A stretch of DNA of 64,000 nucleotides from a candidate division WOR-3 bacterium (GTDB lineage: Bacteria > Hydrothermota > Tepidihabitantia > Tepidihabitantales > JBDRVQ01): positions 29,635-93,634 of the forward strand of contig JBDRVQ010000001.1 in assembly GCA_039801905.1 (NCBI GenBank). Direction: 5' to 3'. The stretch's first letter is position 1; the number at the start of each line of letters is the position of its first letter. Both the position numbers and the translations under genes were made by a program. Below are positions 1,977 through 58,187 of the stretch, one piece after another. The notes under the pieces were generated by a model. That model was not told where the DNA came from and did no database searches. It saw nothing but the letters and a program-made list of their open reading frames with translations.

Positions 1977-2070
1977 GTCATAATTCTAACAATAATTTCC
2001 AATTTTTCAATGGTGGAAGGATGAGCAGAAATTGTGCCGGAGAGGAAGATTTACCGAAATGGAACTGAAA

Positions 2071-2530
2071 ATTTAGTGTCAGAAAATGGGGGGTATTTCC
2101 GTATTTATTATAGAGGGCTATGAAGAAGTTAAAAGAAATTATTAAGGTAAGTTATTGGGTTCTAATCCCAACCCTTATCTCAGAAGAGAGATTAAGGAGG
2201 TGTTATGAGATAATTAGCACTTAATAAAAATGGCATTAAATCATAAGACCTTTATCAAACAGGAGGGGTTTATCTTTATAAAAAGGGGTGTAGCATACAG
2301 GGGATGGTATCAGGGATTTAATGGAAGGGATAATAGAAGTTTTAATAAAAGGCGTAATTTTAGACTTAATCGGAGATTTAATAAAGGGTTTAATCAAGAA
2401 TTTAATAGAAGGTCTAAAAGAGGATATAAAGAGAAGGATAATCAGGAGCCTAAGCCAAGGTATAATCCAGAGCCTAATTAAAGGTTTAATCCGAAGTCTA
2501 AATGGAAGCCTAATCCTAAGAGAAACTTTA
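2071..2530 (+). repeat. Modular intergenic element copy 1: leader (TATTTCCGTATTTATTATAGAGGG ... GGGTTCTAATCCCAACCC), conserved core 2261-2315, then about 17 x 12-nt T-A-A-T-phased tandem units 2322-2526
   Basis: Direct sequence comparison with the copies at 33008-33582, 56588-57735 and 19030-19440 (inverted). The 12-nt period is visible as TTAAT/CTAAT/ATAAT every 12 nt. Confidence 0.8.
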
Positions 2531-15911: not shown

Positions 15912-16748
15912 TTAATACATAGCAATCGTCCCCATCCTTCTCGTCTTCTTTTCCAGATAAGTAAAAAGTAAGATACCAACCAGGAGGAAGACAACATCCA
16001 TAATCCCTAAGAGGAGAATTGTCTGACCCAAATCCAAAATTCTCTTATTTAAGAGAACAATCGCCCGCACCGCCACTAAGGCATAGGTCAAAGGCAAAAG
16101 AAGGGAGATAGTCTTCGTGATGGGATTTATCTCCACCGGATAGCGGATTGGGGAAAAGAGATAAAAGACCCATTCTAAGGTGTGGACAAATCCATGAACC
16201 TCTTTAATTAATAGGGTAAATCCGGCTAGACCAATCGCCAAGCCGTAAAAGCCAATGAGAAGTAATAAAACAATTAAGACCACAGGCAAAATTTGCTTTA
16301 CCCCCACCCTTAAATCTAAAAGGAATACCGAAATTAGTACCTGGGCAATAACCACCACCGTGGCATAGAGAAATTCCACCACCGTCTTACCGATAAGAAT
16401 TACCATCGGGTGGGTGGGAGAGACAAACATATACTCCAAGGTTCCCCAATAAGTCTCCTCCCGGAGCGCATTCCCTACCCCCCATAAACCAGAAAAGATG
16501 TAAGTAGAGATGATTGCTCCCAAAAGGACAAAGGAGAGGTAGTTAGCGCTTCCCGTTAGGTTCTTAAAGGATTCACTGGTTAAACTACCAACGAATGCCT
16601 TGCCTTGAAAGATAAAAGGTAATACCCAGATTAAAGGGAAAATTCCCCAGAAGACAAGCATTATCGGATAGGTGAACCAAATTTTTATCGTCTTTATCAC
16701 CTCCGCCTTAATCACCCGCAGATTTCTCAAAATTACCTCTCTCTTCAT
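15912..16748 (-). CDS. ABC-2 family transporter permease (paralogue)
   Basis: Polytopic membrane protein with an N-terminus similar to the neighbouring permease. Confidence 0.7.
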   Translation of the reverse strand: MKREVILRNLRVIKAEVIKTIKIWFTYPIMLVFWGIFPLIWVLPFIFQGKAFVGSLTSESFKNLTGSANYLSFVLLGAIISTYIFSGLWGVGNALREETYWGTLEYMFVSPTHPMVILIGKTVVEFLYATVVVIAQVLISVFLLDLRVGVKQILPVVLIVLLLLIGFYGLAIGLAGFTLLIKEVHGFVHTLEWVFYLFSPIRYPVEINPITKTISLLLPLTYALVAVRAIVLLNKRILDLGQTILLLGIMDVVFLLVGILLFTYLEKKTRRMGTIAMY

Positions 16749-17740
16749 TCTGCCAAATTTTCTTTGGTATCTTCCTTTAAGGAAGTTCCCGTAATATAAA
16801 GGAAAACATCCTCTAAGGTTGGCTCCTGGTTATTGATTGACAATATCTTTCCTCCTTCCCCAATCGCCTTAATCGCCTCACTCAGAATCTCCTCCACCCG
16901 GGGGGCGATAATCTTCAAGGTTGTTATCCCATCCTTCGCAAAAGAAGAGATGCTCTCTACCATTGGTATCTTCTCAATCTTACTCTTATCCCAAGAGCCA
17001 AAAAATCTTATCTCTAAAATCTCTTTATGGGGCATCTCCTTTTTATACTCCGCCGGCGTCTTCACATCAACAATCTTACCCTTATTGATAAAGGCGATTC
17101 TGTCGCATAACTCATCCGCCTCTTCCATATAGTGAGTGGTTAAAAGTATCGTCTTTTTATGCCTCCCTTTCAATTCCTCCCGGATAAAATTCCGGATGAA
17201 ACGGGCAAAACCCGGATCCAAACCTAAGGTCGGCTCGTCTAAGAGTAAAACCTTTGGGTCGTGGAGTAAAGCCCGGGCCAAAGATAATTTCTGCTTCATC
17301 CCCGAAGAGTACCTCTCCACCCTTTCGTAAGCCACCTCCTTCAAACCTAAAAGTTCTAAAAGATAGTCAATCCTTTTATCCCGCTCCTTAGGTGAAAGTC
17401 CGTAAAGAGCCGCGAAGAATTTCAGGTTATCAACCGCGGAAAGTTTCCAATAGAGTGTCCTCTCGCCAGAGGTTAAAAGTCCAATATTCCCCTTCGCCCA
17501 AAGGGAATTGGCAAAGACATCCCGACCGAAAAGCAATATCTTCCCACTCTCTGGAATCAATAGAGTAGCGATACACCGAACCAAGGTTGTCTTCCCGGCT
17601 CCGTTCGGACCCAAAAGGCCAAAGATTTCCCCTTCGGCAATGGAGAAACTGGCATTAGCCACCGCCAGGATTTCCCTTTTTTTCAAACCCTTCCCCCGGC
17701 GGAACTTCTTCGTTAAATCCCTAACCTCTAAGGCATTCAT
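16745..17740 (-). CDS. ABC transporter ATP-binding protein (ABC-2 exporter ATPase with C-terminal extension)
   Basis: Walker A GPNGAGKTT, signature LSGGMKQKL, Walker B LLLDEPT. Likely start at MNALEVRDL, overlapping the GT4 stop as ATGA. Confidence 0.85.
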   Translation of the reverse strand: MNALEVRDLTKKFRRGKGLKKREILAVANASFSIAEGEIFGLLGPNGAGKTTLVRCIATLLIPESGKILLFGRDVFANSLWAKGNIGLLTSGERTLYWKLSAVDNLKFFAALYGLSPKERDKRIDYLLELLGLKEVAYERVERYSSGMKQKLSLARALLHDPKVLLLDEPTLGLDPGFARFIRNFIREELKGRHKKTILLTTHYMEEADELCDRIAFINKGKIVDVKTPAEYKKEMPHKEILEIRFFGSWDKSKIEKIPMVESISSFAKDGITTLKIIAPRVEEILSEAIKAIGEGGKILSINNQEPTLEDVFLYITGTSLKEDTKENLAE

Positions 17741-18849
17741 CTCTTCGCCAAAACTAATCTTATCAAATCCTCCATCTTCTGTGCCGACTCCTCCCAGGAG
17801 AATTTTTCTGCCCACATTCTCCCTTCCTTTCCCATTCTATCAACCATCTCCTCATTGTCAAGAAGAAAAGCCATCTTTTCGCTCAACTCTTTAATATCAC
17901 CGTATTGATAAAAAAGTCCAGTCTTTCCTTCTCTTACCGCATCAACCAAACCAGGAGAGCGGGCAGCAATTACCGGTGTGCCGCAGGCATTTGCCTCAAC
18001 AATAATTAGACCCCAACCCTCCTTAATGGAATTCTCAACCAAAAAGTAGGCGGATTGATAAAGATTTAACTTCTCCTCCTCTTTTATATAACCAGTAAAC
18101 TCCACAACCGCCTCCATCCCTAACTCTTTGGTCATCTTTTTTAATCTCATTAAGTCATCCCCATCCCCAACAATCACCACCCGAAAATCCCTTCGCTTCT
18201 GAAATAGGAGATGAGTTGCCAATAATAGATGGTCGGTTGATTTATACCTCTTTAACCGGCCGCAATGCAAAATAATCTTCTCTTTCTTCTTATTAAAATC
18301 CGGTTGGTAAAACTGAGTATCAATTCCGGGTGGAATCACCCTTATCCTTTCGCTAATATCCTTCTTAAATAAGTTAAGCAAATCCCTTTTGGTGCTTTCC
18401 GAAAGAACCGCAAAGTAATTATCCTTATAAACCCAAGGGATGAGATTTTCCGCAAGGTAGACATAGGTGGCAAATAAAAAAGAGGTCTCTTTATAAACCG
18501 CCTTCCGGAAGAGGTGCATCAGGATGGCTAAGACTGGAATCTCTTTTATAAAATAAGGAGAATAAAAGGGTATTTTATTTAAGTCATCAATGATTAAGTC
18601 AAAGTTATTTTCTTTAACAATTCTGGGCAAGAAGCGATACACAGTAAAATTGAAGGTATTTTTTCCGCCCCTTCTTAAAAATCTTATCCCCCCTATTTCC
18701 TCCTCATCCGGCAGATTGGCTCTTTCCGAAAGGTAGGTTATCTTAAACCCTTTTTTTGCCAATCTCCGGAAGATCTCATAAGCATAGACCTCCGCCCCTC
18801 CGGCTAAGGGATTTTTTGGGCAGCGCCAATTGATTAAGAGAACATTCAT
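17737..18849 (-). CDS. glycosyltransferase family 4
   Basis: C-terminal EGWGLIIVEANACGTPVIA GT4 (E-x7-E) region. Confidence 0.8.
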   Translation of the reverse strand: MNVLLINWRCPKNPLAGGAEVYAYEIFRRLAKKGFKITYLSERANLPDEEEIGGIRFLRRGGKNTFNFTVYRFLPRIVKENNFDLIIDDLNKIPFYSPYFIKEIPVLAILMHLFRKAVYKETSFLFATYVYLAENLIPWVYKDNYFAVLSESTKRDLLNLFKKDISERIRVIPPGIDTQFYQPDFNKKKEKIILHCGRLKRYKSTDHLLLATHLLFQKRRDFRVVIVGDGDDLMRLKKMTKELGMEAVVEFTGYIKEEEKLNLYQSAYFLVENSIKEGWGLIIVEANACGTPVIAARSPGLVDAVREGKTGLFYQYGDIKELSEKMAFLLDNEEMVDRMGKEGRMWAEKFSWEESAQKMEDLIRLVLAKR

Positions 18850-18864
18850 TAAAAGAATAGAAAA

Positions 18865-18937
18865 TGGGTCGTGCAGGATTCGAACCTGCGGCCACCGGAT
18901 TAAAAATCCGGTGCTCTGCCACCTGAGCTAACGACCC
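18865..18937 (-). tRNA. tRNA-Lys (anticodon UUU)
   Basis: Cloverleaf read from the sequence: 7-bp acceptor stem GGGTCGT/ACGACCC, anticodon stem CCGGA/TCCGG with loop TTTTTAA, T-loop GGTTCGAATCC. No encoded CCA. Confidence 0.85.
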
Positions 18938-18945
18938 GATAGCTA

Positions 18946-18973
18946 ATCTTAATTAGAAATGGCAAAAAGTCAA
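18946..18973 (-). promoter_or_regulatory. sigma-70-like promoter (TTGACT -16- TAAGAT) placing the start site at the tRNA-Lys 5' end
   Basis: Read from the reverse complement of the sequence. Confidence 0.4.
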
Positions 18974-19029: not shown

Positions 19030-19440
19030 CAATTGCCAACCCATTTATTGGGAGCGGATGGAAAGCGAAGGCTCTACTCAAAAAGAAAAGATTATCCATC
19101 TCCACTAATCATTCTCAATTAGGCTTCCATTTTCCCTTCGGATTAAACCCATAGTTAGACATAGGATTAAACTCTTTATTATCCCTTCTATTAAACTCTG
19201 AATTAAAGTTCCAATTATACCCTCTTTTAGAGTATTTATTAAATCCTCAATTAGATCTCCAATTACGTGTAAAATTATCCCTTATTTTAGACCCTATATT
19301 ATGCCTTCCATTAAATCCCCGATACCATCCCCTGTATGCTACACCCTTTTTACAAAAATAAATCCCTCCTTTCTAAGGATAGTTTTTCTTATCAGTTAGT
19401 TAATTTATTATATTATAAAGCAATTTTGGAAGATGTCAAT
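19030..19440 (-). repeat. Modular intergenic element copy 4 (inverted): consensus promoter TTGACA -16- TATAAT (19412-19439), core 19317-19370, 12-nt T-A-A-T array about 19100-19316, tail module 19030-19100 shared with copy 2
   Basis: The reverse complement matches the core and tail of copy 2 almost base for base. The promoter hexamers are perfect consensus. Confidence 0.8.
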
Positions 19441-19471
19441 CTCTGGGAAAAGCAAGCCGGGATTTCTTACC

Positions 19472-20356
19472 TTAATTGATAATGATTTCTATTTTAGAAT
19501 ATTTAGGGGAAAGACCGGGCAGAAAACGGGGAGCAATGGCTATCGTCCCCTTAGGAAGGAGAATCCTCTTCTTCAATTCCCTTTCCACCACCTCCACCCA
19601 ACCCGGTAGGAGCTCTTCCTTCTCGGAATAAACAAAGCAAGTGATCTCCCTCTTAAAATTCTCCTTTACCAGATTTGCCGCCTCATCCCATATCTCCTTC
19701 GCCTGAGAAGTCAAATCTTCACCTCCTTCCCCAAATATCTCCCGGGCGGAGATGGCGATAATCTTCTGCCCTTTTTCTTCGTAGAAAATCCCAGGTATTT
19801 TCAAAGGCTCACCCAAAATTTTCGTCTCGTTGCCAATCGCATCATAAGCCGAGAAAGAGAAGGAATAAACCTCACCCGGGATTATCACCTCTCCGGTATT
19901 CTTCCTTCCGTTCCAAACGATGGTTGCCGGTGGCATCCCCTTCCCTTCCAACCTTCTCACCTCCTCTCCTTGGCTATCAAAAATTATCAGACGCCAGGAG
20001 GCAACCGTCTTCTCAAAATGGGGAAATAGGATTAAGACATCACCGTAGATAAATCTCTTTTTCACTGGCACCCGTAAATAGTTGGAGGTGATAAAAAGAG
20101 AGGGAATCGTTAGGGAGTCTACTGTGTAATATAACCGCTCATCGTAGATGTAACCCGAAGGTTTGAGCCTTTCTTCAATTAAAAGGAAAGGGTTGATGGG
20201 AGGCGGGGTGAAGAGTTTCCTTTCGGTGATTAGGTAAGGCTTCTCCCCCTTTATCACCTCTTCCCCAATCTCATAAGGTCTCTTTACCTTACCCGTATCC
20301 GGCTTCAAGGTATCGGGAATTTGGGTGAAGAAAAGAAGAATGAAGAGGTAAATCAC
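19472..20356 (-). CDS. hypothetical exported protein (N-terminal TM/signal; FlgD-Ig-like beta domain), last gene of the TonB operon
   Basis: Hydrophobic N-terminus; no recognisable catalytic motif. Confidence 0.5.
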   Translation of the reverse strand: MIYLFILLFFTQIPDTLKPDTGKVKRPYEIGEEVIKGEKPYLITERKLFTPPPINPFLLIEERLKPSGYIYDERLYYTVDSLTIPSLFITSNYLRVPVKKRFIYGDVLILFPHFEKTVASWRLIIFDSQGEEVRRLEGKGMPPATIVWNGRKNTGEVIIPGEVYSFSFSAYDAIGNETKILGEPLKIPGIFYEEKGQKIIAISAREIFGEGGEDLTSQAKEIWDEAANLVKENFKREITCFVYSEKEELLPGWVEVVERELKKRILLPKGTIAIAPRFLPGLSPKYSKIEIIIN

Positions 20357-32731: not shown

Positions 32732-33007
32732 TTTTCACCTCTTCACTAAAATTAAGTTTAGGGGAAAAAAAGGGAAAGTCAACATTGGTATGGAAGCAAT
32801 AAGAGAGAAGAGCCACTTTATGGTGGTAGAGATTTTTGACCAAAAGAATTGAATTTCTCGTTGATGATAATACCTTGCCAAAATAAACCTCTCGCCACCT
32901 TCTATTCAAGAAGAAGAGTTACAATCTAAGGAGTGAGCGGAAGATAAAAAGATGAAATAGAACTTTCCCACTTCGGTGGTCACACCCTTCTGAAAAGTGT
33001 CTCTTGA

Positions 33008-33582
33008 ATTAAATAAGTTATTATAAATCAAAGGCTTATAAAAAAGGGGGAAATTTAGTGTCAGAAATTGGGGGGTATTTCCGTATTTATTATAGAGGGC
33101 TATGAAGAAGTTAAAAGAAATTATTAAGGTAAGTGATTGGGTTCTAATCCCAACCCTTGAAGAGAGATTGAGGAGGTATTATCGGGTAATTAGCACTTAA
33201 TAAAAATGGCATTAAATAATAAAAAACTTTATCAAACAGGAGGGGTTTATCTTTATAAAAAGGGGTGTAGCATACAGGGGATGGTATCGGGGATTTAATG
33301 GAAGGCATAATCTAAGGCATAATTTTAGGCTTAATCGGAGTTTTAATAGAGGGTTTAATTGAGAATCTAATAAATACTCTAAAAGAAGTTATAACCGGCG
33401 GTATAATCAGAAGCCTAATTCAGAGTTTAATAGAAAGGATAATAAAGAGTTTAATCATGTGTCTAATTAAGGGTTTAATCCGAAGGGAAAATAGAAACCT
33501 AATTGAGAATGATTAGTGGAGAAGAATAATCTTTTCTCTTTGAATAGAGCCCTCGCTTTCCATCCGCTCCCAATAAATGGGT
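33008..33582 (+). repeat. Modular intergenic element copy 2: far-upstream module 33008-33050 (shared with copy 3), leader 33051-33237, core 33238-33292, 12-nt T-A-A-T array 33298-33510, tail 33490-33582 (shared with copy 4)
   Basis: Direct alignment to copies 1, 3 and 4. Confidence 0.8.
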
Positions 33583-45171: not shown

Positions 45172-46371
45172 TTATCCCTTCGGAGTGAAAAAGGCCCCCG
45201 TGAAAAGTATTAAGCCGGTGCGATTATCCCGAATGGCAAAGAAGAAGGGACGATTGAATACAAGATGAAACCTTTCTGGGAGGGCGGTTAAAGCCATCTC
45301 TACCGAAGTGACCGCTGCCGCCTCGGTTCCCTCTTCTGTTATGCTGAGGTAGGTCTTATGCCGGACATCGTTAATAAATAATCCCCCTTCCCCGCTCATG
45401 CCAGTAAAATCCGCCTTCTTTGGATCAAAGGCAATTGCCATATTCATCCTTTTTAAGATTTCTTTGAATGATTTTTCGTATGTCAAATGAATTCTGGGTA
45501 AAGAGATCTCCCCTTCTCTCTCATCAAACTCCTTTAAGACTTCTTCCCATCTTCCCCCTAACCATTGAACCAAACTGGCAAGGGGAAAGTTAGTATCGGG
45601 TAGAAAAAGGTAAATACTCACTTCCCCCTTTCCATAAGGCAAAGCAACTGCCGCCCAATTTTCCTTTTTGAGATAAAGAAACCTTCCCGATTGGGACATC
45701 AGCAAAATTTTCTCTTCCCCTCGGGGGGAATAAAAGAAATCTTCCTTCGTTTTCTCTTTTGGAAACTCCCTTTGCCACTTCCCTTGAAAGTAAACCGCAT
45801 TCAAAATGAATAGCACCACATTTCTCTCAATTTTTTCTATAATTTTTTCTATCTTCCCCTTGGTATTTTTCCTAACCCACTGATTAATCTCTTTTATCGC
45901 TGAGGGCTGGGAGAAGTCTAAGGTTTTTATCTTTGCTTTGAAGAACTTTCTATTTCTTTCTAAGAATTCCCTCTTTAAGGAAATTCCCTTTCTCGCCCAC
46001 AAAGAGTTAGCAATTTTTAATTCTACCTGGGGAATAGGTCTTCTTAGGAATTGGTGGAGATCGCTTAAGGCGGTATTCAAGGAGTCTAACTTCATCTCTT
46101 TTAAGTTAAGGGTTTTAGCCATCGCCTCTTTTGTTTCCCCTCCCGCTCCGTTATAAGTGCTCACCAGAGCAAGATAAACACTGATTGGAGAGATGAAGAT
46201 ATTCTCATTAAAATCTTCTGCCATTAACTCCGAAAAGAGGGAAAAACCAAACCGATTATTCCCTTGGACAAACAGAGGTGAAACCCCGGCCCTTAGCCAA
46301 GAGAAGAGAAGAAAGGAGAGAAAAACCCAGCCCTTCAACTTTTCCTTCTTCCCTTTCCAGTTTTTAAGCAT
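45172..46371 (-). CDS. serpin (serine protease inhibitor), secreted
   Basis: Hinge EEGTEAAAVT and C-terminal FNRPFFFAIRDNRTGLILFTGAF serpin signature; signal peptide. Confidence 0.85.
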   Translation of the reverse strand: MLKNWKGKKEKLKGWVFLSFLLFSWLRAGVSPLFVQGNNRFGFSLFSELMAEDFNENIFISPISVYLALVSTYNGAGGETKEAMAKTLNLKEMKLDSLNTALSDLHQFLRRPIPQVELKIANSLWARKGISLKREFLERNRKFFKAKIKTLDFSQPSAIKEINQWVRKNTKGKIEKIIEKIERNVVLFILNAVYFQGKWQREFPKEKTKEDFFYSPRGEEKILLMSQSGRFLYLKKENWAAVALPYGKGEVSIYLFLPDTNFPLASLVQWLGGRWEEVLKEFDEREGEISLPRIHLTYEKSFKEILKRMNMAIAFDPKKADFTGMSGEGGLFINDVRHKTYLSITEEGTEAAAVTSVEMALTALPERFHLVFNRPFFFAIRDNRTGLILFTGAFFTPKG

Positions 46372-46376
46372 ACTTA

Positions 46377-46404
46377 ATTATATCTCCGAGAAGGGAGATG
46401 TCAA
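46377..46404 (-). promoter_or_regulatory. consensus sigma-70 promoter TTGACA -16- TATAAT, 5 nt upstream of the serpin ATG (leaderless)
   Basis: Reverse complement of 46372-46404 reads TTGACAtctcccttctcggagaTATAATtaagtATG. Confidence 0.55.
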
Positions 46405-46447: not shown

Positions 46448-47410
46448 ATGAAAAAGAGATTATTAGTTTTAATTTTTCTCACCACTGGTTTATTGGGAAA
46501 GGAAGAGTTTCCCGCTTTATTCCCGATTCGGCAAAACTTCCGCTACGGATTGATTGACTCTACGGGAAAAATTGTCGTCAAACCACAACTTGATGGAATT
46601 GATGACTTCTCAGAAGGGATGGCAGTGATTAGAATCAATAACCAGTGGGGTTATATTGATGCCCGGAACTGGCAGGTCTTAAAGACTAAGTTTGAACAGG
46701 TTGGCCGTTTCTCCGAAGGGAAGGCGCGTGTCTTATACAAAGGGAAATGGGGTTATATTGACCGAAATGGGAAATTTGTGATCAAGCCCCAGTTTGAGTT
46801 CGCCGGTGATTTTCGGGAAGGGAAGGCCGCGGTGGGTATTGGGGGCAAGGTTGGTTACATTGATTCTACTGGTAAATTTATTATCAGTCCCCAGTTTTTC
46901 TCCACCTTCAACTTTTCCGAAGGGAGAGCGGGTGTTTTAGTTGGTAATAAACTCGGTTATATTGATTCGACCGGCAAGGTGGTGATTAAACCGATCTTTG
47001 ATTTCATCTGGGACTTTAAGGAAGGTTTGGCTCGGGTAATGGTCAATAGGAAATGGGGTTATATTGACCGAAATGGGAAGTTTGTGATTAAGCCCCGGTT
47101 TGATGAGGCATTTGATTTTTCGGAGAGTCTGGCCGCGGTCCGGGTGAAGGAGAAAATCGGTTATATTGACAAAAAGGGTAAATTTGTTATCAAACCGAAA
47201 TTTAAAGCCGGTGGCGAATTTTCAGAAGGACTTGCCCCGGCCTTAGCCGATAGTCTTTGGGGTTATATTGATAAAACTGGTGAGTTTAAGATTCAACCGA
47301 GTTTTGAAATCGCCTATCCCTTCTTTCGGGGTTTGGCAAAAGTGCAAATGAAAGGAAAGATCGGTTATATTGATAGAAGGGGAATTTTTATCTGGGAGCC
47401 AACGGAGTAG
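46448..47410 (+). CDS. WG-repeat (KWG) containing lipoprotein/exported protein
   Basis: Eight tandem units of about 37 aa with KWGYIDxxGKxVIKPxF. Confidence 0.8.
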   Translation: MKKRLLVLIFLTTGLLGKEEFPALFPIRQNFRYGLIDSTGKIVVKPQLDGIDDFSEGMAVIRINNQWGYIDARNWQVLKTKFEQVGRFSEGKARVLYKGKWGYIDRNGKFVIKPQFEFAGDFREGKAAVGIGGKVGYIDSTGKFIISPQFFSTFNFSEGRAGVLVGNKLGYIDSTGKVVIKPIFDFIWDFKEGLARVMVNRKWGYIDRNGKFVIKPRFDEAFDFSESLAAVRVKEKIGYIDKKGKFVIKPKFKAGGEFSEGLAPALADSLWGYIDKTGEFKIQPSFEIAYPFFRGLAKVQMKGKIGYIDRRGIFIWEPTE

Positions 47411-56502: not shown

Positions 56503-56587
56503 TTATCCAACGTATTGTAACCAATTTTTCCCTTTTGTCAACCTTGGTTTTATAATAAAAAGGACTCTTAAACCCTACTTTTCCCAA

Positions 56588-56703
56588 TCAAATAAGTTAT
56601 TAAAAATCAAAGACTTATAAAAAAGGGAAAGATTTGGTGTCCAATTTTTGGGGGTATTTCCGTATTTATTATAGAGGGGTATTGGGTTCTAATCCCAACC
56701 CCG
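56588..56703 (+). repeat. Modular element copy 3, leader part (far-upstream module, TATTTCCGTATTTATTATAGAGGG, GGGTTCTAATCCCAACCC hairpin) directly preceding the RBS of the embedded two-gene cassette
   Basis: Alignment to the copy 1 and copy 2 leaders. Confidence 0.75.
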
Positions 56704-56718
56704 AAAAGAGAGGTGCGT

Positions 56719-57087
56719 ATGAAAGATGCTTTAAGGCGAATAGAGAAGTATATATCTAAGTTAGAACCAGAGATTATAAGAAGAGATTTTGCCCAATTGA
56801 AAGAGAAGATGCTACAACAGATTACCACCTACTTTATAGAGATCTTTGAGGTTGAGACAAAGGCAAAGGCGATTTTAAGCGAATACGACCTACCGGTTAG
56901 TCTTATCCCCTTTTATCTATGCTATGCCCGGGAATTATATAGCCTTTCTAAGAGATATGCGGGATTTCCTCTCTTCCGGGAGATAAGGATTAGGGAGGGA
57001 AAATGGCGAAATAGAACTCTCCAACCGGAAATTTTAAGAAGGATAAGATTTGATATATTTGGCATAACCTTACCGGAGGAGATATGA
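56719..57087 (+). CDS. hypothetical small protein (about 122 aa) embedded in repeat element copy 3
   Basis: RBS aagagagg 6-7 nt upstream. ATGA overlap with the next ORF. No recognisable motif. Confidence 0.5.
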   Translation: MKDALRRIEKYISKLEPEIIRRDFAQLKEKMLQQITTYFIEIFEVETKAKAILSEYDLPVSLIPFYLCYARELYSLSKRYAGFPLFREIRIREGKWRNRTLQPEILRRIRFDIFGITLPEEI

Positions 57088-57419
57088 GGATTGAGATAAA
57101 GAAGAAGAAGTCACTGGAGAGATTGGCGAAGATGGCAAGGAGATATGCAGTTTATTATCCAGATGCTACAAGGAGTTACCTGAAAGGGATAGTTGACTAT
57201 GTCCTATTTGTGGAAGAGAAGGTGAAAGAGATTTTGGAGGAGCGGGGAATTTCGGTTATTTATCACTTTGCCTATTATGCCTTCGGTAGAAAGGTCTATA
57301 AACTCCTAAAAGAGAAGAAGGATTCCCAAATCCCTTCTTTAATTGAGGAGTGGGTGAAAGATAAATGTCTTTCCCGAGATGTTTTATCAGAGATTAAGGA
57401 GGCTTTATCGGAGAAGTAG
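57084..57419 (+). CDS. hypothetical small basic protein (111 aa) embedded in repeat element copy 3
   Basis: Translationally coupled to the previous ORF. Contains an R-x6-H stretch (RGISVIYH). Function unknown. Confidence 0.5.
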   Translation: MRIEIKKKKSLERLAKMARRYAVYYPDATRSYLKGIVDYVLFVEEKVKEILEERGISVIYHFAYYAFGRKVYKLLKEKKDSQIPSLIEEWVKDKCLSRDVLSEIKEALSEK

Positions 57420-57463
57420 GTCTTAAATAAGACTTAAGTTAAGTGATAAAAATTTTATGATGT

Positions 57464-57735
57464 AGGAGGGTTTTGTCTTTAGAAAAAGGGGTGTAGCATA
57501 CAGGGGATGGTATCGGGGTTCTAATGGAAAGTCTAAGTAACGGTCTAAACTTAGGTCTAATTGGAGTTCTAAATAAGGGTCTAAAAGAAGGTCTAAAAGT
57601 AGGGGTAATAAAAAGAGTAATTGGAAATCTAATTAAGAGTCTAATTGAAAATTTAATCCGAAGTCTAATTATAGTTTTAACCGAAAGCCCAATTGAAAGT
57701 CTAACCTCAAGTCTAAATATCGGCTCGGTGAAAAT
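57464..57735 (+). repeat. Modular element copy 3, core (57464-57518) plus about 17 x 12-nt T-A-A-T-phased units
   Basis: Alignment to the other copies; CTAAT/TTAAT recurs every 12 nt. Confidence 0.8.
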
Positions 57736-57755
57736 AGGGGAGGGCAATAACACTA

Positions 57756-57784
57756 TTGACAAGAATACTTTTTTTGTGTATATT
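57756..57784 (+). promoter_or_regulatory. sigma-70 promoter TTGACA -17- TATATT for hup
   Basis: Read from the sequence. About 125-nt leader with RBS aagggggtg before the ATG. Confidence 0.5.
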
Positions 57785-57914
57785 TTAGGAATGGAAGTGG
57801 CGATAGCGCCCCTCGGGGCAATACCTTGCCAAATCAATCTTTTCCCAACCATTTCTCTTTTAATAAGAAACTATCGTCCACCTTCCAAAAATCCTATTAA
57901 GGGGGTGATAAAAT

Positions 57915-58187
57915 ATGAAGAAAGCCGAACTTATTGAGAAAATCGCCAAGGATGCAGGCATCTCCAAGAAACAGGCGGGGCTCGCTCTCCAATCCTTTAT
58001 GGATGCGGTGAAGATGGTGATGAAGAAAGATGACGAACTGACCCTTCCCAAATTTGGCCGGTTCTATGTGAAGAAGACAAAAGCCCGAATTGGCCGGAAT
58101 CCAAAAACCGGAGAGGAGATAAAAATTCCAGCCAGGAAGAGACCGGCCTTCCGCGCGGGGAAGGAATTAAAACTCGCTGCTAAATAA
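57915..58187 (+). CDS. hup: DNA-binding protein HU
   Basis: MKKAELIEKIAK... with the arm GRNPKTGEEIKIPARKRPAFRAGKELK; 90 aa. Confidence 0.92.
   Translation: MKKAELIEKIAKDAGISKKQAGLALQSFMDAVKMVMKKDDELTLPKFGRFYVKKTKARIGRNPKTGEEIKIPARKRPAFRAGKELKLAAK

What the first reader, a model, noticed from the sequence alone, without database searches (positions are those of the whole stretch)
19030..19440. Inverted copy 4 is driven by a perfect TTGACA-16-TATAAT promoter and points into tRNA-Lys
On the minus strand, 19434-19439 reads TTGACA and 19412-19417 reads TATAAT (16-nt spacer). Transcription would start near 19404 and run straight through the core (19317-19370), the 12-nt array and the tail toward tRNA-Lys(UUU) (18865-18937), which has its own TTGACT/TAAGAT promoter at 18946-18973. 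A consensus promoter dedicated to a non-coding repeat argues that the element is expressed as RNA. The tRNA association is also notable because tRNA genes are classic integration and processing landmarks.
Basis: seen in the sequence. Interest (0 to 1): 0.6.

Follow-up and report, generated by a model that had tools for sequence, protein, structure and literature searches.

The report
Promoter-driven 12-nt repeat RNA element
A perfect promoter, kept intact across species, drives a non-coding element (a near-invariant core plus seventeen 12-base repeats) that elsewhere sits just behind two small proteins resembling archaeal filamentous-virus capsid proteins, which grip DNA 12 base pairs at a time; the neighbouring tRNA gene is incidental.

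Summary
TTGACA-16-TATAAT (19439-19412, minus strand) is a 12/12 match, with 0.02 expected per window. tRNA-Lys(UUU) lies 101 nt beyond the element.

The promoter belongs to the element. Two further "solo" copies in another WOR-3 species carry the same hexamers and 16-nt spacer, and homology starts at the -35.

The element is not protein-coding, is not a known RNA family and is not measurably structured. It has a G-run box, a 25-nt core, 17 in-phase 12-nt units (RGTYTAATnnRR) and a tail.

The full-length form (window copy 3) places the core and array about 70 nt behind two translationally coupled paralogous genes, A and B. Weak but convergent sequence, profile and fold evidence ties them to the SIRV2/Adnaviria capsid fold, whose dimers wrap 12 bp each. 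A distant lineage keeps A/B, a G-run core and 19 x 12-nt units, but with a different motif (GATAT).

I infer that the array is a phased loading platform for A/B, and that copy 4 is a separately transcribed extra platform.

The tRNA link is incidental: none of about 15 distinct related places examined has a tRNA.

Whether A/B read RNA or DNA is unresolved.

The parts
19434..19439 (-). -35 hexamer TTGACA of the solo-element promoter
   Evidence: Invariant in the L003 and L004 solo copies.
19412..19417 (-). -10 hexamer TATAAT, 16-nt spacer; predicted start near 19405
   Evidence: The start site is inferred from standard -10 to +1 spacing.
19371..19405 (-). Poorly conserved leader between the predicted start and the 5' box
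   Evidence: Alignment of the three solo copies.
19346..19370 (-). 5' box AGGAGGGATTTATTTTTGTAAAAAG (G-run plus T/A tract)
   Evidence: Conserved in all copies that share the window-type core and in the divergent L012.
19321..19345 (-). 25-nt core GGTGTAGCATACAGGGGATGGTATC
   Evidence: Identical in most copies read from several WOR-3 genomes. One substitution in L008-L011, three in L021. Short-read assemblies break in or just before it.
19114..19317 (-). Array of 17 in-phase 12-nt units, consensus RGTYTAATnnRR, TAA nearly invariant, 8% C
19039..19113 (-). Tail shared only with copy 2 (84% identity); no terminator predicted
   Evidence: (repeat I1).
18946..18973 (-). Weak promoter-like site TTGACT-16-TAAGAT just before the tRNA
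   Evidence: 9/12 match.
18865..18937 (-). tRNA-Lys(UUU); not part of the element, probably read into from it
   Evidence: Homology with copy 2 stops at 19039.
2068..2518 (+). Copy 1: upstream module, hairpin (2157-2169), 34-aa remnant ORF, core 2287-2311, 17-unit array 2315-2518
33007..33582 (+). Copy 2: upstream module, hairpin (33139-33151), remnant ORF, core 33264-33288, 18-unit array, and a tail like that of copy 4
56586..56712 (+). Copy 3 upstream module, with hairpin GGGG..UUGGG-UUCUAAU-CCCAA-CCCC just before the Shine-Dalgarno site of gene A
   Evidence: (z = -2.2).
56719..57087 (+). Gene A (122 aa), SIRV2-fold-like
   Evidence: In Foldseek, 9 of the top 12 hits are Adnaviria capsid proteins.
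57084..57419 (+). Gene B (111 aa), paralog of A; its start overlaps the stop of A (ATGA)
57450..57721 (+). Copy 3 5' box, core (57490-57514) and 17-unit array (57518-57721), lying 70 nt after the stop of B

Best explanation
Copy 4 is a stand-alone, promoter-equipped copy of a lineage-specific non-coding element. The element consists of a G-run 5' box, a 25-nt core, 17 phased 12-nt TAA(T) units and a tail. The consensus promoter is part of this solo form of the element. It most likely produces a purine-rich, C-poor, unstructured RNA. That RNA would be about 370 nt if it ends at the tail. It would be about 470 nt if its 3' end is set by RNase P cleavage at the 5' end of tRNA-Lys. The full-length form of the element encodes two translationally coupled paralogous small proteins, A and B, that resemble the capsid proteins of archaeal filamentous viruses (Adnaviria). 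Dimers of those capsid proteins cover exactly 12 bp each. I infer that the core nucleates, and the 12-nt array phases, the cooperative loading of about 17 A/B heterodimers. Solo copies such as copy 4 would then supply extra, separately transcribed platforms in trans, acting as scaffold or sponge. Steps shown here: the promoter and its conservation; the non-coding nature of the array; its strict 12-nt phase; the genetic linkage of A/B with the array; and the weak but convergent similarity of A/B to the capsid proteins. Steps inferred: transcription itself, binding of A/B to the array, the nucleic acid that is read (RNA, DNA or hybrid), and the cellular role. The adjacency to tRNA-Lys is incidental.
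For: Promoter: a 12/12 match against 0.02 expected. The same hexamers and the same 16-nt spacer head the solo copies L003 and L004 of another species, and similarity begins at the -35. Non-coding: in the only open frame there are 9 stops against 12.9 +/- 2.5 under a column-shuffle null (P = 0.08, so openness is explained by composition). The ATG is missing in L001, L002, L004, L006 and L008. A TAG lies in frame inside the core in most copies. 'Codon 2' is NTA in 169 of 173 units, whereas NTA makes up 16.5% of NTN codons and CTA 4.6% of Leu codons in 36 real ORFs. There is no 3-nt periodicity. Not a known or structured RNA: no Rfam match even at E <= 1; consensus fold -2.9 kcal/mol with no covariation; the 468-nt putative transcript has z = +0.24. 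Linkage: the core and array follow the stop of B by about 65-75 nt in copy 3/L005, L002, L006/L007, L008-L011, L012 and L014/L015. Array length is 17-21 units in every complete array read. The distant L014 lineage (B 42% identical) keeps the G-run core, the 12-nt period and 19 units, but has the motif GATAT instead of YTAAT. Capsid-like proteins: A and B are paralogs (hhalign 88.6%, E 2.7e-6). B hits PF12193 and PF21660 at E 0.004-0.005, and 5 of 7 B proteins hit PF12193. The best PDB matches to the B profile are the AFV1 ORF132 chains, sharing GIxxIxxxxYxAFGxK. The B profile finds P0016 at E 1.5e-4 among 1.84 billion proteins, and P0016 passes the PF12193 gathering score (36.9 against 25.2 bits). 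In the Foldseek search with the A model, 9 of the top 12 hits are SIRV2, SSRV1, SIFV, AFV1 or PFV2 capsid proteins (best probability 0.97, TM 0.61/0.59). AFV1 and SIRV2 capsomers each cover 12 bp (PMC5517147). The leader of gene A carries a hairpin that displays UUCUAAU, the array motif, just before the Shine-Dalgarno site.
Confidence: 0.5

Rival explanations
1. DNA-level platform. The arrays act as double-stranded DNA: 12-bp-phased TA-step positioning sites on which A/B dimers build a short A-form nucleoprotein superhelix, as in adnavirus virions. The promoter of the solo copies is then either regulated by this coat or drives transcription that clears it. In that case copy 4 would be an A/B-responsive control cassette for tRNA-Lys, the glycosyltransferase gene and the ABC transporter gene downstream.
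For: The viral homologues wrap 12 bp of dsDNA per dimer. The motif cores are short palindromic TA-step tetramers (TTAA in the window family, ATAT in L014), which would suit a pseudo-symmetric heterodimer. The motif sequence differs between lineages while the period is kept, as expected for a structural code. G-runs favour A-form DNA (my own knowledge). Co-oriented genes follow copies 2, 3, 4, L004, L008, L012 and L021.
Against: Orientation relative to transcription is the same in every copy, and the sense strand is C-poor (8-13% C). A double-stranded site would not need either property. A motif-bearing hairpin lies in the mRNA leader of gene A. Copies 1, L006 and L014 face convergent genes, so the element is not simply a leader for downstream genes.
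Confidence: 0.3
2. Selfish repeat with no function of its own. The element is a dispersed MITE-like sequence, and the promoter matters only because it drives tRNA-Lys and the downstream operon.
For: There are several copies per genome in different contexts. Synteny breaks at the 3' side of the element between sister species. There is no terminator before the tRNA.
Against: I saw no terminal inverted repeats or target-site duplications at the copy boundaries I read, though I ran no dedicated search. No transposase is recognisable among the called genes and Pfam assignments around the copies. The core is kept nearly unchanged where flanking coding DNA is only 73-75% identical. Unit number is held at 17-21. 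The promoter recurs at two loci that have no tRNA. The tRNA has its own promoter-like site.
Confidence: 0.1
3. Protein-coding. The array encodes a small protein with a 4-residue repeat (xLIx, for example the 84-aa ORF 2321-2575 in copy 1 and the 137-aa ORF 57524-57937 in copy 3). Copy 4 would then be a promoter-driven gene or pseudogene.
For: One frame is open in copies 1, 3, L001, L002 and L014. The few motif changes CTA to CTC/CTT/CTG would be synonymous. A gene caller called a 96-aa ORF over the L014 array.
Against: Stops occur in 7 of the 12 distinct arrays read, including at codons 6 and 10 of copy 4, and one stop is kept in four genomes. There is no conserved start, and a TAG lies in frame in the core. 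Stop depletion is not significant (P = 0.08). The rarest Leu codon would be used almost exclusively. The implied residues are not conserved (I/R/T/K in L012; D instead of L in L014). Identity between copies 2 and 4 continues at the same level past the stop.
Confidence: 0.05

Closest known systems
Adnaviria major capsid proteins (SIRV2 homodimer; AFV1 MCP1/MCP2 heterodimer)
   Same: Both are small alpha-helical proteins with a basic N-terminal helix and a C-terminal helical bundle. Two paralogous genes lie side by side. The capsomer footprint of 12 bp equals the period of the array. Sequence, profile and fold hits all point to this family.
   Different: A and B are encoded on a bacterial chromosome (WOR-3) among housekeeping genes, not in an archaeal virus. 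There are no hits in the viral contig collection. They are coupled to a sequence-specific phased array, which as far as I know has not been described for the viruses. Membership by the Pfam threshold is not met directly.
CsrB/RsmZ-type protein-sponge small RNAs
   Same: Both are non-coding and have their own promoter. CsrB-type RNAs also carry many copies of a short motif that recurs next to the ribosome-binding site of a target mRNA (my own knowledge of that family). Here the recurrence is the hairpin in the gene A leader.
   Different: The spacing here is a strict 12 nt in an unstructured RNA, not a set of hairpin loops. No terminator is predicted. The candidate partner protein is unrelated to CsrA. 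There is no Rfam match.
Viral origin-of-assembly or packaging signals whose periodicity matches the coat-protein footprint (for example the tobacco mosaic virus origin of assembly, with G every third base; my own knowledge)
   Same: A nucleation sequence is followed by a repeat whose period equals the number of nucleotides covered per coat subunit.
   Different: This element is chromosomal, present in several copies, and has no virion genes. The array is 17-21 units long rather than genome-length.
ParR-parC type II plasmid centromeres (iteron array beside the gene for its binding protein; my own knowledge)
   Same: A tandem iteron array lies adjacent to the operon that encodes a small dimeric binding protein, which polymerises into a helical nucleoprotein. 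A promoter is associated with the array.
   Different: No ParM or ParA NTPase is recognisable among the genes called around the A/B pairs. The array lies downstream of the genes and in one fixed orientation. Copies are dispersed on the chromosome. The protein fold is different.

Membership tests
Sigma-70-type promoter | -35 TTGACA and -10 TATAAT separated by 16-18 nt | tested here: met
   12/12 match with a 16-nt spacer; 0.02 expected per window.
Sigma-70-type promoter | Hexamers and spacing conserved in homologous copies | tested here: met
   L003 and L004 (another species) are 12/12 with a 16-nt spacer, and homology starts at the -35.
Sigma-70-type promoter | Mapped transcription start | not testable with these tools
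   No transcriptome data were available.
Adnaviria major capsid protein (Pfam PF12193 / PF21660) | Sequence reaches the Pfam gathering score | tested here: not met
   B scores 17.6 bits against 25.2 and 17.1 against 27; A has no hit. There is an indirect link: the B profile finds P0016 (E 1.5e-4), and P0016 itself passes PF12193 with 36.9 bits.
Adnaviria major capsid protein (SIRV2 fold) | Long N-terminal helix plus C-terminal helical bundle with SIRV2 topology | tested here: inconclusive
Adnaviria major capsid protein | Dimer wraps 12 bp of A-form DNA | not testable with these tools
   Only the 12-nt period of the adjacent array is consistent with it.
Adnaviria (virus) | Encoded in a linear viral genome of an archaeon | tested here: not met
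   The context is a bacterial chromosome: TonB/ExbD, a tRNA, a glycosyltransferase, an HU-type DNA-binding protein by Pfam, and a RecA-like ORF by my own reading. No relative was found in the viral contigs.
CsrB/RsmZ-like sponge RNA | Membership of a described RNA family | tested here: not met
   No Rfam match at the gathering score or at E <= 1.
CsrB/RsmZ-like sponge RNA | Many copies of a short motif that also occurs at the ribosome-binding site of a target mRNA | tested here: inconclusive
   There are 17 phased TAA(T) motifs. One hairpin displaying UUCUAAU lies before the Shine-Dalgarno site of gene A. No other targets were examined.
tRNA-targeting integrative element | Integrase gene, and insertion at the tRNA 3' end with a duplicated tRNA segment | tested here: not met
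   The element lies 5' of the tRNA. No integrase is recognisable among the ORFs and Pfam assignments around it. Homology with copy 2 ends 101 nt before the tRNA.
tRNA-targeting integrative element | Other copies also next to tRNA genes | tested here: not met
   ARAGORN finds one tRNA in the window and none in L001-L016 or L021-L024.
Protein-coding gene (4-residue-repeat protein) | Conserved start, an open frame and genome-typical codon usage | tested here: not met
   (details under the rival explanations).

The most novel reading that the evidence does not exclude
Thermophilic WOR-3 bacteria carry chromosomal homologues of the capsid-protein pair of Adnaviria, a fold so far known only from archaeal viruses. 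Each pair comes with a cognate, co-evolving nucleic-acid code: a G-run nucleation core plus about 17 units phased at the 12-nt footprint of the capsomer. Further promoter-driven solo arrays, such as copy 4, are dispersed on the chromosome. This would be a sequence-directed cellular nucleoprotein filament. It would be either the long-sought cellular relative of the adnavirus capsid or a domesticated capsid, and it would provide the first positioning signal known for that fold.
Probability: 0.4. Interest if true: 0.85.

Novelty: categorically new. Interest (0 to 1): 0.72.

Why it matters
Adnaviria capsid proteins are described as a unique fold, with no link to bacteria or to viruses of bacteria (PMC12282232, PMC10848233). 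A bacterial chromosomal pair of such proteins would bear directly on the origin of that capsid. A DNA or RNA array phased at the capsomer footprint would also give an experimentally tractable, sequence-specific assembly substrate. For genome annotation, this is an undescribed non-coding element family. It breaks short-read assemblies and is easily miscalled as a small repeat protein. For the finding itself, the promoter is a conserved working part of the element, which makes transcription the first thing to test.

Tried and rejected
- **Coding:** three forward frames and the reverse frames were examined. The "LI" frame is open only as far as position-specific composition predicts, and its codon usage is incompatible with real genes.
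- **Structured RNA:** the RNAalifold consensus is weak with no covariation. The single-sequence fold has z = +0.24. Rfam finds nothing.
- **Terminator in the tail:** none passes the scan, and the tail hairpins are no better than shuffles.
- **G-quadruplex in the core:** G-runs are conserved in three lineages, but the loops are long and this was not tested further.
- **tRNA integration:** rejected.
- **CRISPR-like array:** rejected on inspection. The period is 12 nt with no spacers, and no cas genes were seen nearby.
- **Defence system:** no PADLOC hit for A or B. PHROGs gave only weak hits to families of unknown function.
- **Wider distribution:** the core 20-mer has no hits in the metagenome or viral collections. 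Protein-pattern scans returned only the L012 contig, and nothing in the viral contigs. An alignment of distant homologues was too divergent to scan with.
- **Remote homologues P0014, P0015 and P0016:** they have no adjacent 12-nt array, so the array is specific to the bacterial A/B clade.

Full report
**1.

On the minus strand, TTGACA (19439-19434) and TATAAT (19417-19412) are separated by 16 nt, a 12/12 match. A perfect TTGACA-N16-18-TATAAT occurs twice in the window, against 0.02 expected from shuffles. The other site lies 6 nt before the ATG of a 399-aa ORF (serpin-like by my own reading), so such promoters look functional in this genome.

tRNA-Lys(UUU) lies at 18865-18937 on the same strand. 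It is preceded by a weak (9/12) TTGACT-16-TAAGAT site. The gene upstream of the promoter (19472-20356) has a sub-threshold FlgD Ig-like Pfam hit and is the last gene of an exbB-exbD-tonB cluster. It is co-directional and ends 32 nt before the -35. Nothing divergent could use the promoter.

The window is 100% identical to GCA_039801865.1 contig JBDRVO010000001.1, a candidate division WOR-3 metagenome-assembled genome.

**2. Anatomy of the element**

Four copies exist in the window: about 2.0-2.5, 33.0-33.6 and 56.6-57.7 kb on the plus strand, and 19039-19439 on the minus strand. All four share the same parts:

- a 5' box, AGGAGGG(G)-T/A tract-AAAAAG;
- a 25-nt core, GGTGTAGCATACAGGGGATGGTATC;
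- a run of 12-nt units in strict phase with the core.

Across 173 units from 10 arrays the consensus is RGTYTAATnnRR. TAA is present in 163-172 of 173 units, and the sense strand is C-poor. Copy 4 has 17 units (19317-19114). In it, 16 of 19 TAA occurrences share one phase. Self-identity is 0.52-0.56 at lags 12/24/36 but only 0.22-0.27 at the other multiples of three. A 75-nt tail (19113-19039) is shared only with copy 2, at 84% identity.

**3. The array is not a gene**

Read from an ATG just after the core, copies 1 and 3 give open xLIx-repeat ORFs. I tested that reading seriously, and it fails on several counts:

- The ATG is absent in L001, L002, L004, L006 and L008, and a TAG lies in frame inside the core.
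- Seven of the 12 distinct arrays read carry in-frame stops. Copy 4 has them at codons 6 and 10. One stop is retained in four genomes.
- The number of stops (9) is not significantly below a column-shuffle null (12.9 +/- 2.5, P = 0.08).
- The would-be Leu codon is NTA in 169 of 173 units and about half of these are CTA. In 36 real ORFs of the window, CTA is the rarest Leu codon (4.6%) and NTA makes up 16.5% of NTN codons.
- In divergent lineages the implied residues change class.

The constraint therefore acts on nucleotides.

The element is also not a recognisable structured RNA. Rfam finds nothing, even at E <= 1. The consensus fold is -2.9 kcal/mol with no covariation. The 468-nt putative transcript folds no better than shuffles (z = +0.24).

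**4. The promoter belongs to the element**

A sister species (WOR-3 genome JBDRVU01, about 73-75% nucleotide identity in syntenic coding DNA) also carries several copies of the element. Two of them (L003, L004) are solo copies headed by TTGACA-16-TATAAT. Both are 12/12 matches, and their spacers resemble that of copy 4. Similarity among the three starts at the -35 and resumes at the 5' box. Their flanking genes differ from those of copy 4, so the promoter travels with the element.

No terminator is predicted before the tRNA. The RNA would contain only 8% C, which makes it a poor substrate for Rho (this rests on established knowledge of Rho, not on a test here). Read-through into tRNA-Lys, with RNase P defining a 3' end, is therefore plausible but inferred.

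**5. The tRNA link is incidental**

ARAGORN finds no other tRNA in the window and none in any of the related loci scanned.

In the sister species the same position, directly after the FlgD-like gene, also holds an element with 17 units and a core with three substitutions. That copy has the long upstream module instead of the consensus promoter, and it is followed by an AddB-like helicase-nuclease gene, not a tRNA. More distant relatives have no element at this position.

The element lies 5' of the tRNA, and no integrase is recognisable among the nearby ORFs.

**6. What the element goes with**

Copy 3 is the full-length form. It consists of an upstream module, gene A (56719-57087), gene B (57084-57419, its start overlapping the stop of A) and, 70 nt later, the box, core and array. 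Copies 1 and 2 look like deletion derivatives that keep the upstream module and a small remnant ORF.

Word-indexed searches found A and B homologues only in a handful of genomes, all named ones being WOR-3. An exhaustive profile search found 10 clusters among 1.84 billion representative proteins. In six of the seven distinct A/B loci recovered, the core and array follow the stop of B by about 65-75 nt. The seventh (L013) has only a vestige.

The most telling case is L014/L015, a more distant bacterial genome in which B is 42% identical. There the pair is followed by a G-run core (…GGACGATACAGGGGG…) and 19 units of 12 nt whose motif is GATAT, not YTAAT. Period, unit number (17-21 everywhere), purine bias and position are kept while the motif has changed. 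That pattern is what co-evolution of a binding protein and its site would produce.

**7. What A and B are**

A and B are paralogs (hhalign 88.6%, E 2.7e-6). The evidence tying them to adnavirus capsid proteins is as follows:

- B gives sub-threshold hits to the two Pfam families of filamentous archaeal virus coat proteins, PF12193 (E 0.0044) and PF21660 (E 0.0055). Five of seven B proteins hit PF12193.
- The best PDB matches of a B profile are the AFV1 ORF132 chains (3fbl, 5w7g_B). The match falls on the most conserved B motif, GISVIYHFAYYAFGRK, aligned to GIPNIKWGMYIAFGEK.
- The B profile retrieves P0016 at E 1.5e-4, and P0016 itself passes the PF12193 gathering score.
- A has no sequence hit. 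Yet its template-free model retrieves, as 9 of its top 12 Foldseek hits, the capsid proteins of SIRV2 (probability 0.97, TM 0.61/0.59 over the full length), SSRV1, SIFV, AFV1 and PFV2.

According to PMC5517147, the AFV1 heterodimer and the SIRV2 homodimer each cover 12 bp of A-form DNA. That equals the period of the array.

**8. Proposed mechanism**

The core nucleates, and the 12-nt array phases, the cooperative loading of about 17 A/B heterodimers. Copy 4 is an additional platform with its own strong promoter.

Whether the platform is read as RNA, as duplex DNA or as a transcription-coupled hybrid is unresolved.

- For RNA: the conserved promoter; the invariant orientation; the C-poor, unstructured sense strand; and a hairpin displaying UUCUAAU just before the Shine-Dalgarno site of gene A.
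- For DNA: the known substrate of the viral homologues, and the palindromic TA-step motif cores.

I commit to "transcribed platform RNA" at 0.5 and the DNA-level variant at 0.3.

**9. Comparison and novelty**

In function the element resembles three known kinds: a sponge or scaffold RNA (CsrB-like), a packaging or assembly origin phased to the coat-protein footprint, and a ParR-parC-type iteron array. It fails the membership tests for each of these.

The proteins resemble adnavirus capsid proteins, but they sit in a bacterial chromosome. The literature I read describes that fold as unique and Adnaviria as unconnected to bacteria. I found no described family that covers either the element or the association.

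Noticed in passing
window 46377-46404 (-) and ORF 45172-46371 (-): The only other perfect TTGACA-16-TATAAT in the window ends 6 nt before the ATG of a 399-aa ORF (serpin-like by my own reading). This implies a leaderless mRNA.
   Followed up: partly
window 46448-47410 (+): A 320-aa ORF is built of roughly 34-residue (102-nt) repeats of the type KWGYIDxxGKFVIKPxF. This accounts for direct-repeat families D3, D5 and D6.
   Followed up: no
window 57757-57785 (+); L002, L005, L012, L004, L008 and L021 just after their arrays: Arrays are typically followed at once by a near-consensus promoter for the next gene (for example TTGACA-17-TATATT before the HU gene 57915-58187). Element transcripts would therefore run into separately promoted genes.
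   Followed up: partly
L018, L020 (Logan assemblies) and L019 (NCBI assembly), corresponding to window 19322 and 19393: The two Logan short-read contigs of the same population end inside the 25-nt core, and the NCBI contig ends in the leader just before it. The element breaks assemblies, so copy numbers in metagenome-assembled genomes are underestimates.
   Followed up: yes
L021 2933-3544 compared with window 19039-19472: At the same position after the FlgD-like gene, the sister species has a module-type element (no consensus promoter), and synteny breaks at its 3' side (AddB-like gene instead of tRNA-Lys and the glycosyltransferase). This suggests recombination or gene conversion among copies.
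   Followed up: partly
window 19346-19370 and 19321-19345 (-); L012 1390-1440; L014 2900-2943: Three or four runs of G3-5 on the sense strand just upstream of the array are conserved in all three lineages, although the sequence differs. They could form a G-quadruplex, start an R-loop or favour A-form DNA.
   Followed up: no
window 2120-2224 and 33102-33200 (+): Small ORFs of 34 and 32 aa in copies 1 and 2 (MKKLKEIIKVS.WVLIPTL..EERLRR...IST) differ by an in-frame 6-nt indel. They span the conserved hairpin and look like remnants of the A/B region.
   Followed up: no
window 17737-17815 (-): The glycosyltransferase ORF (17737-18849) and the ABC ATPase ORF (16745-17815) overlap by 79 nt as listed. 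The real start of the ATPase is probably further downstream.
   Followed up: no
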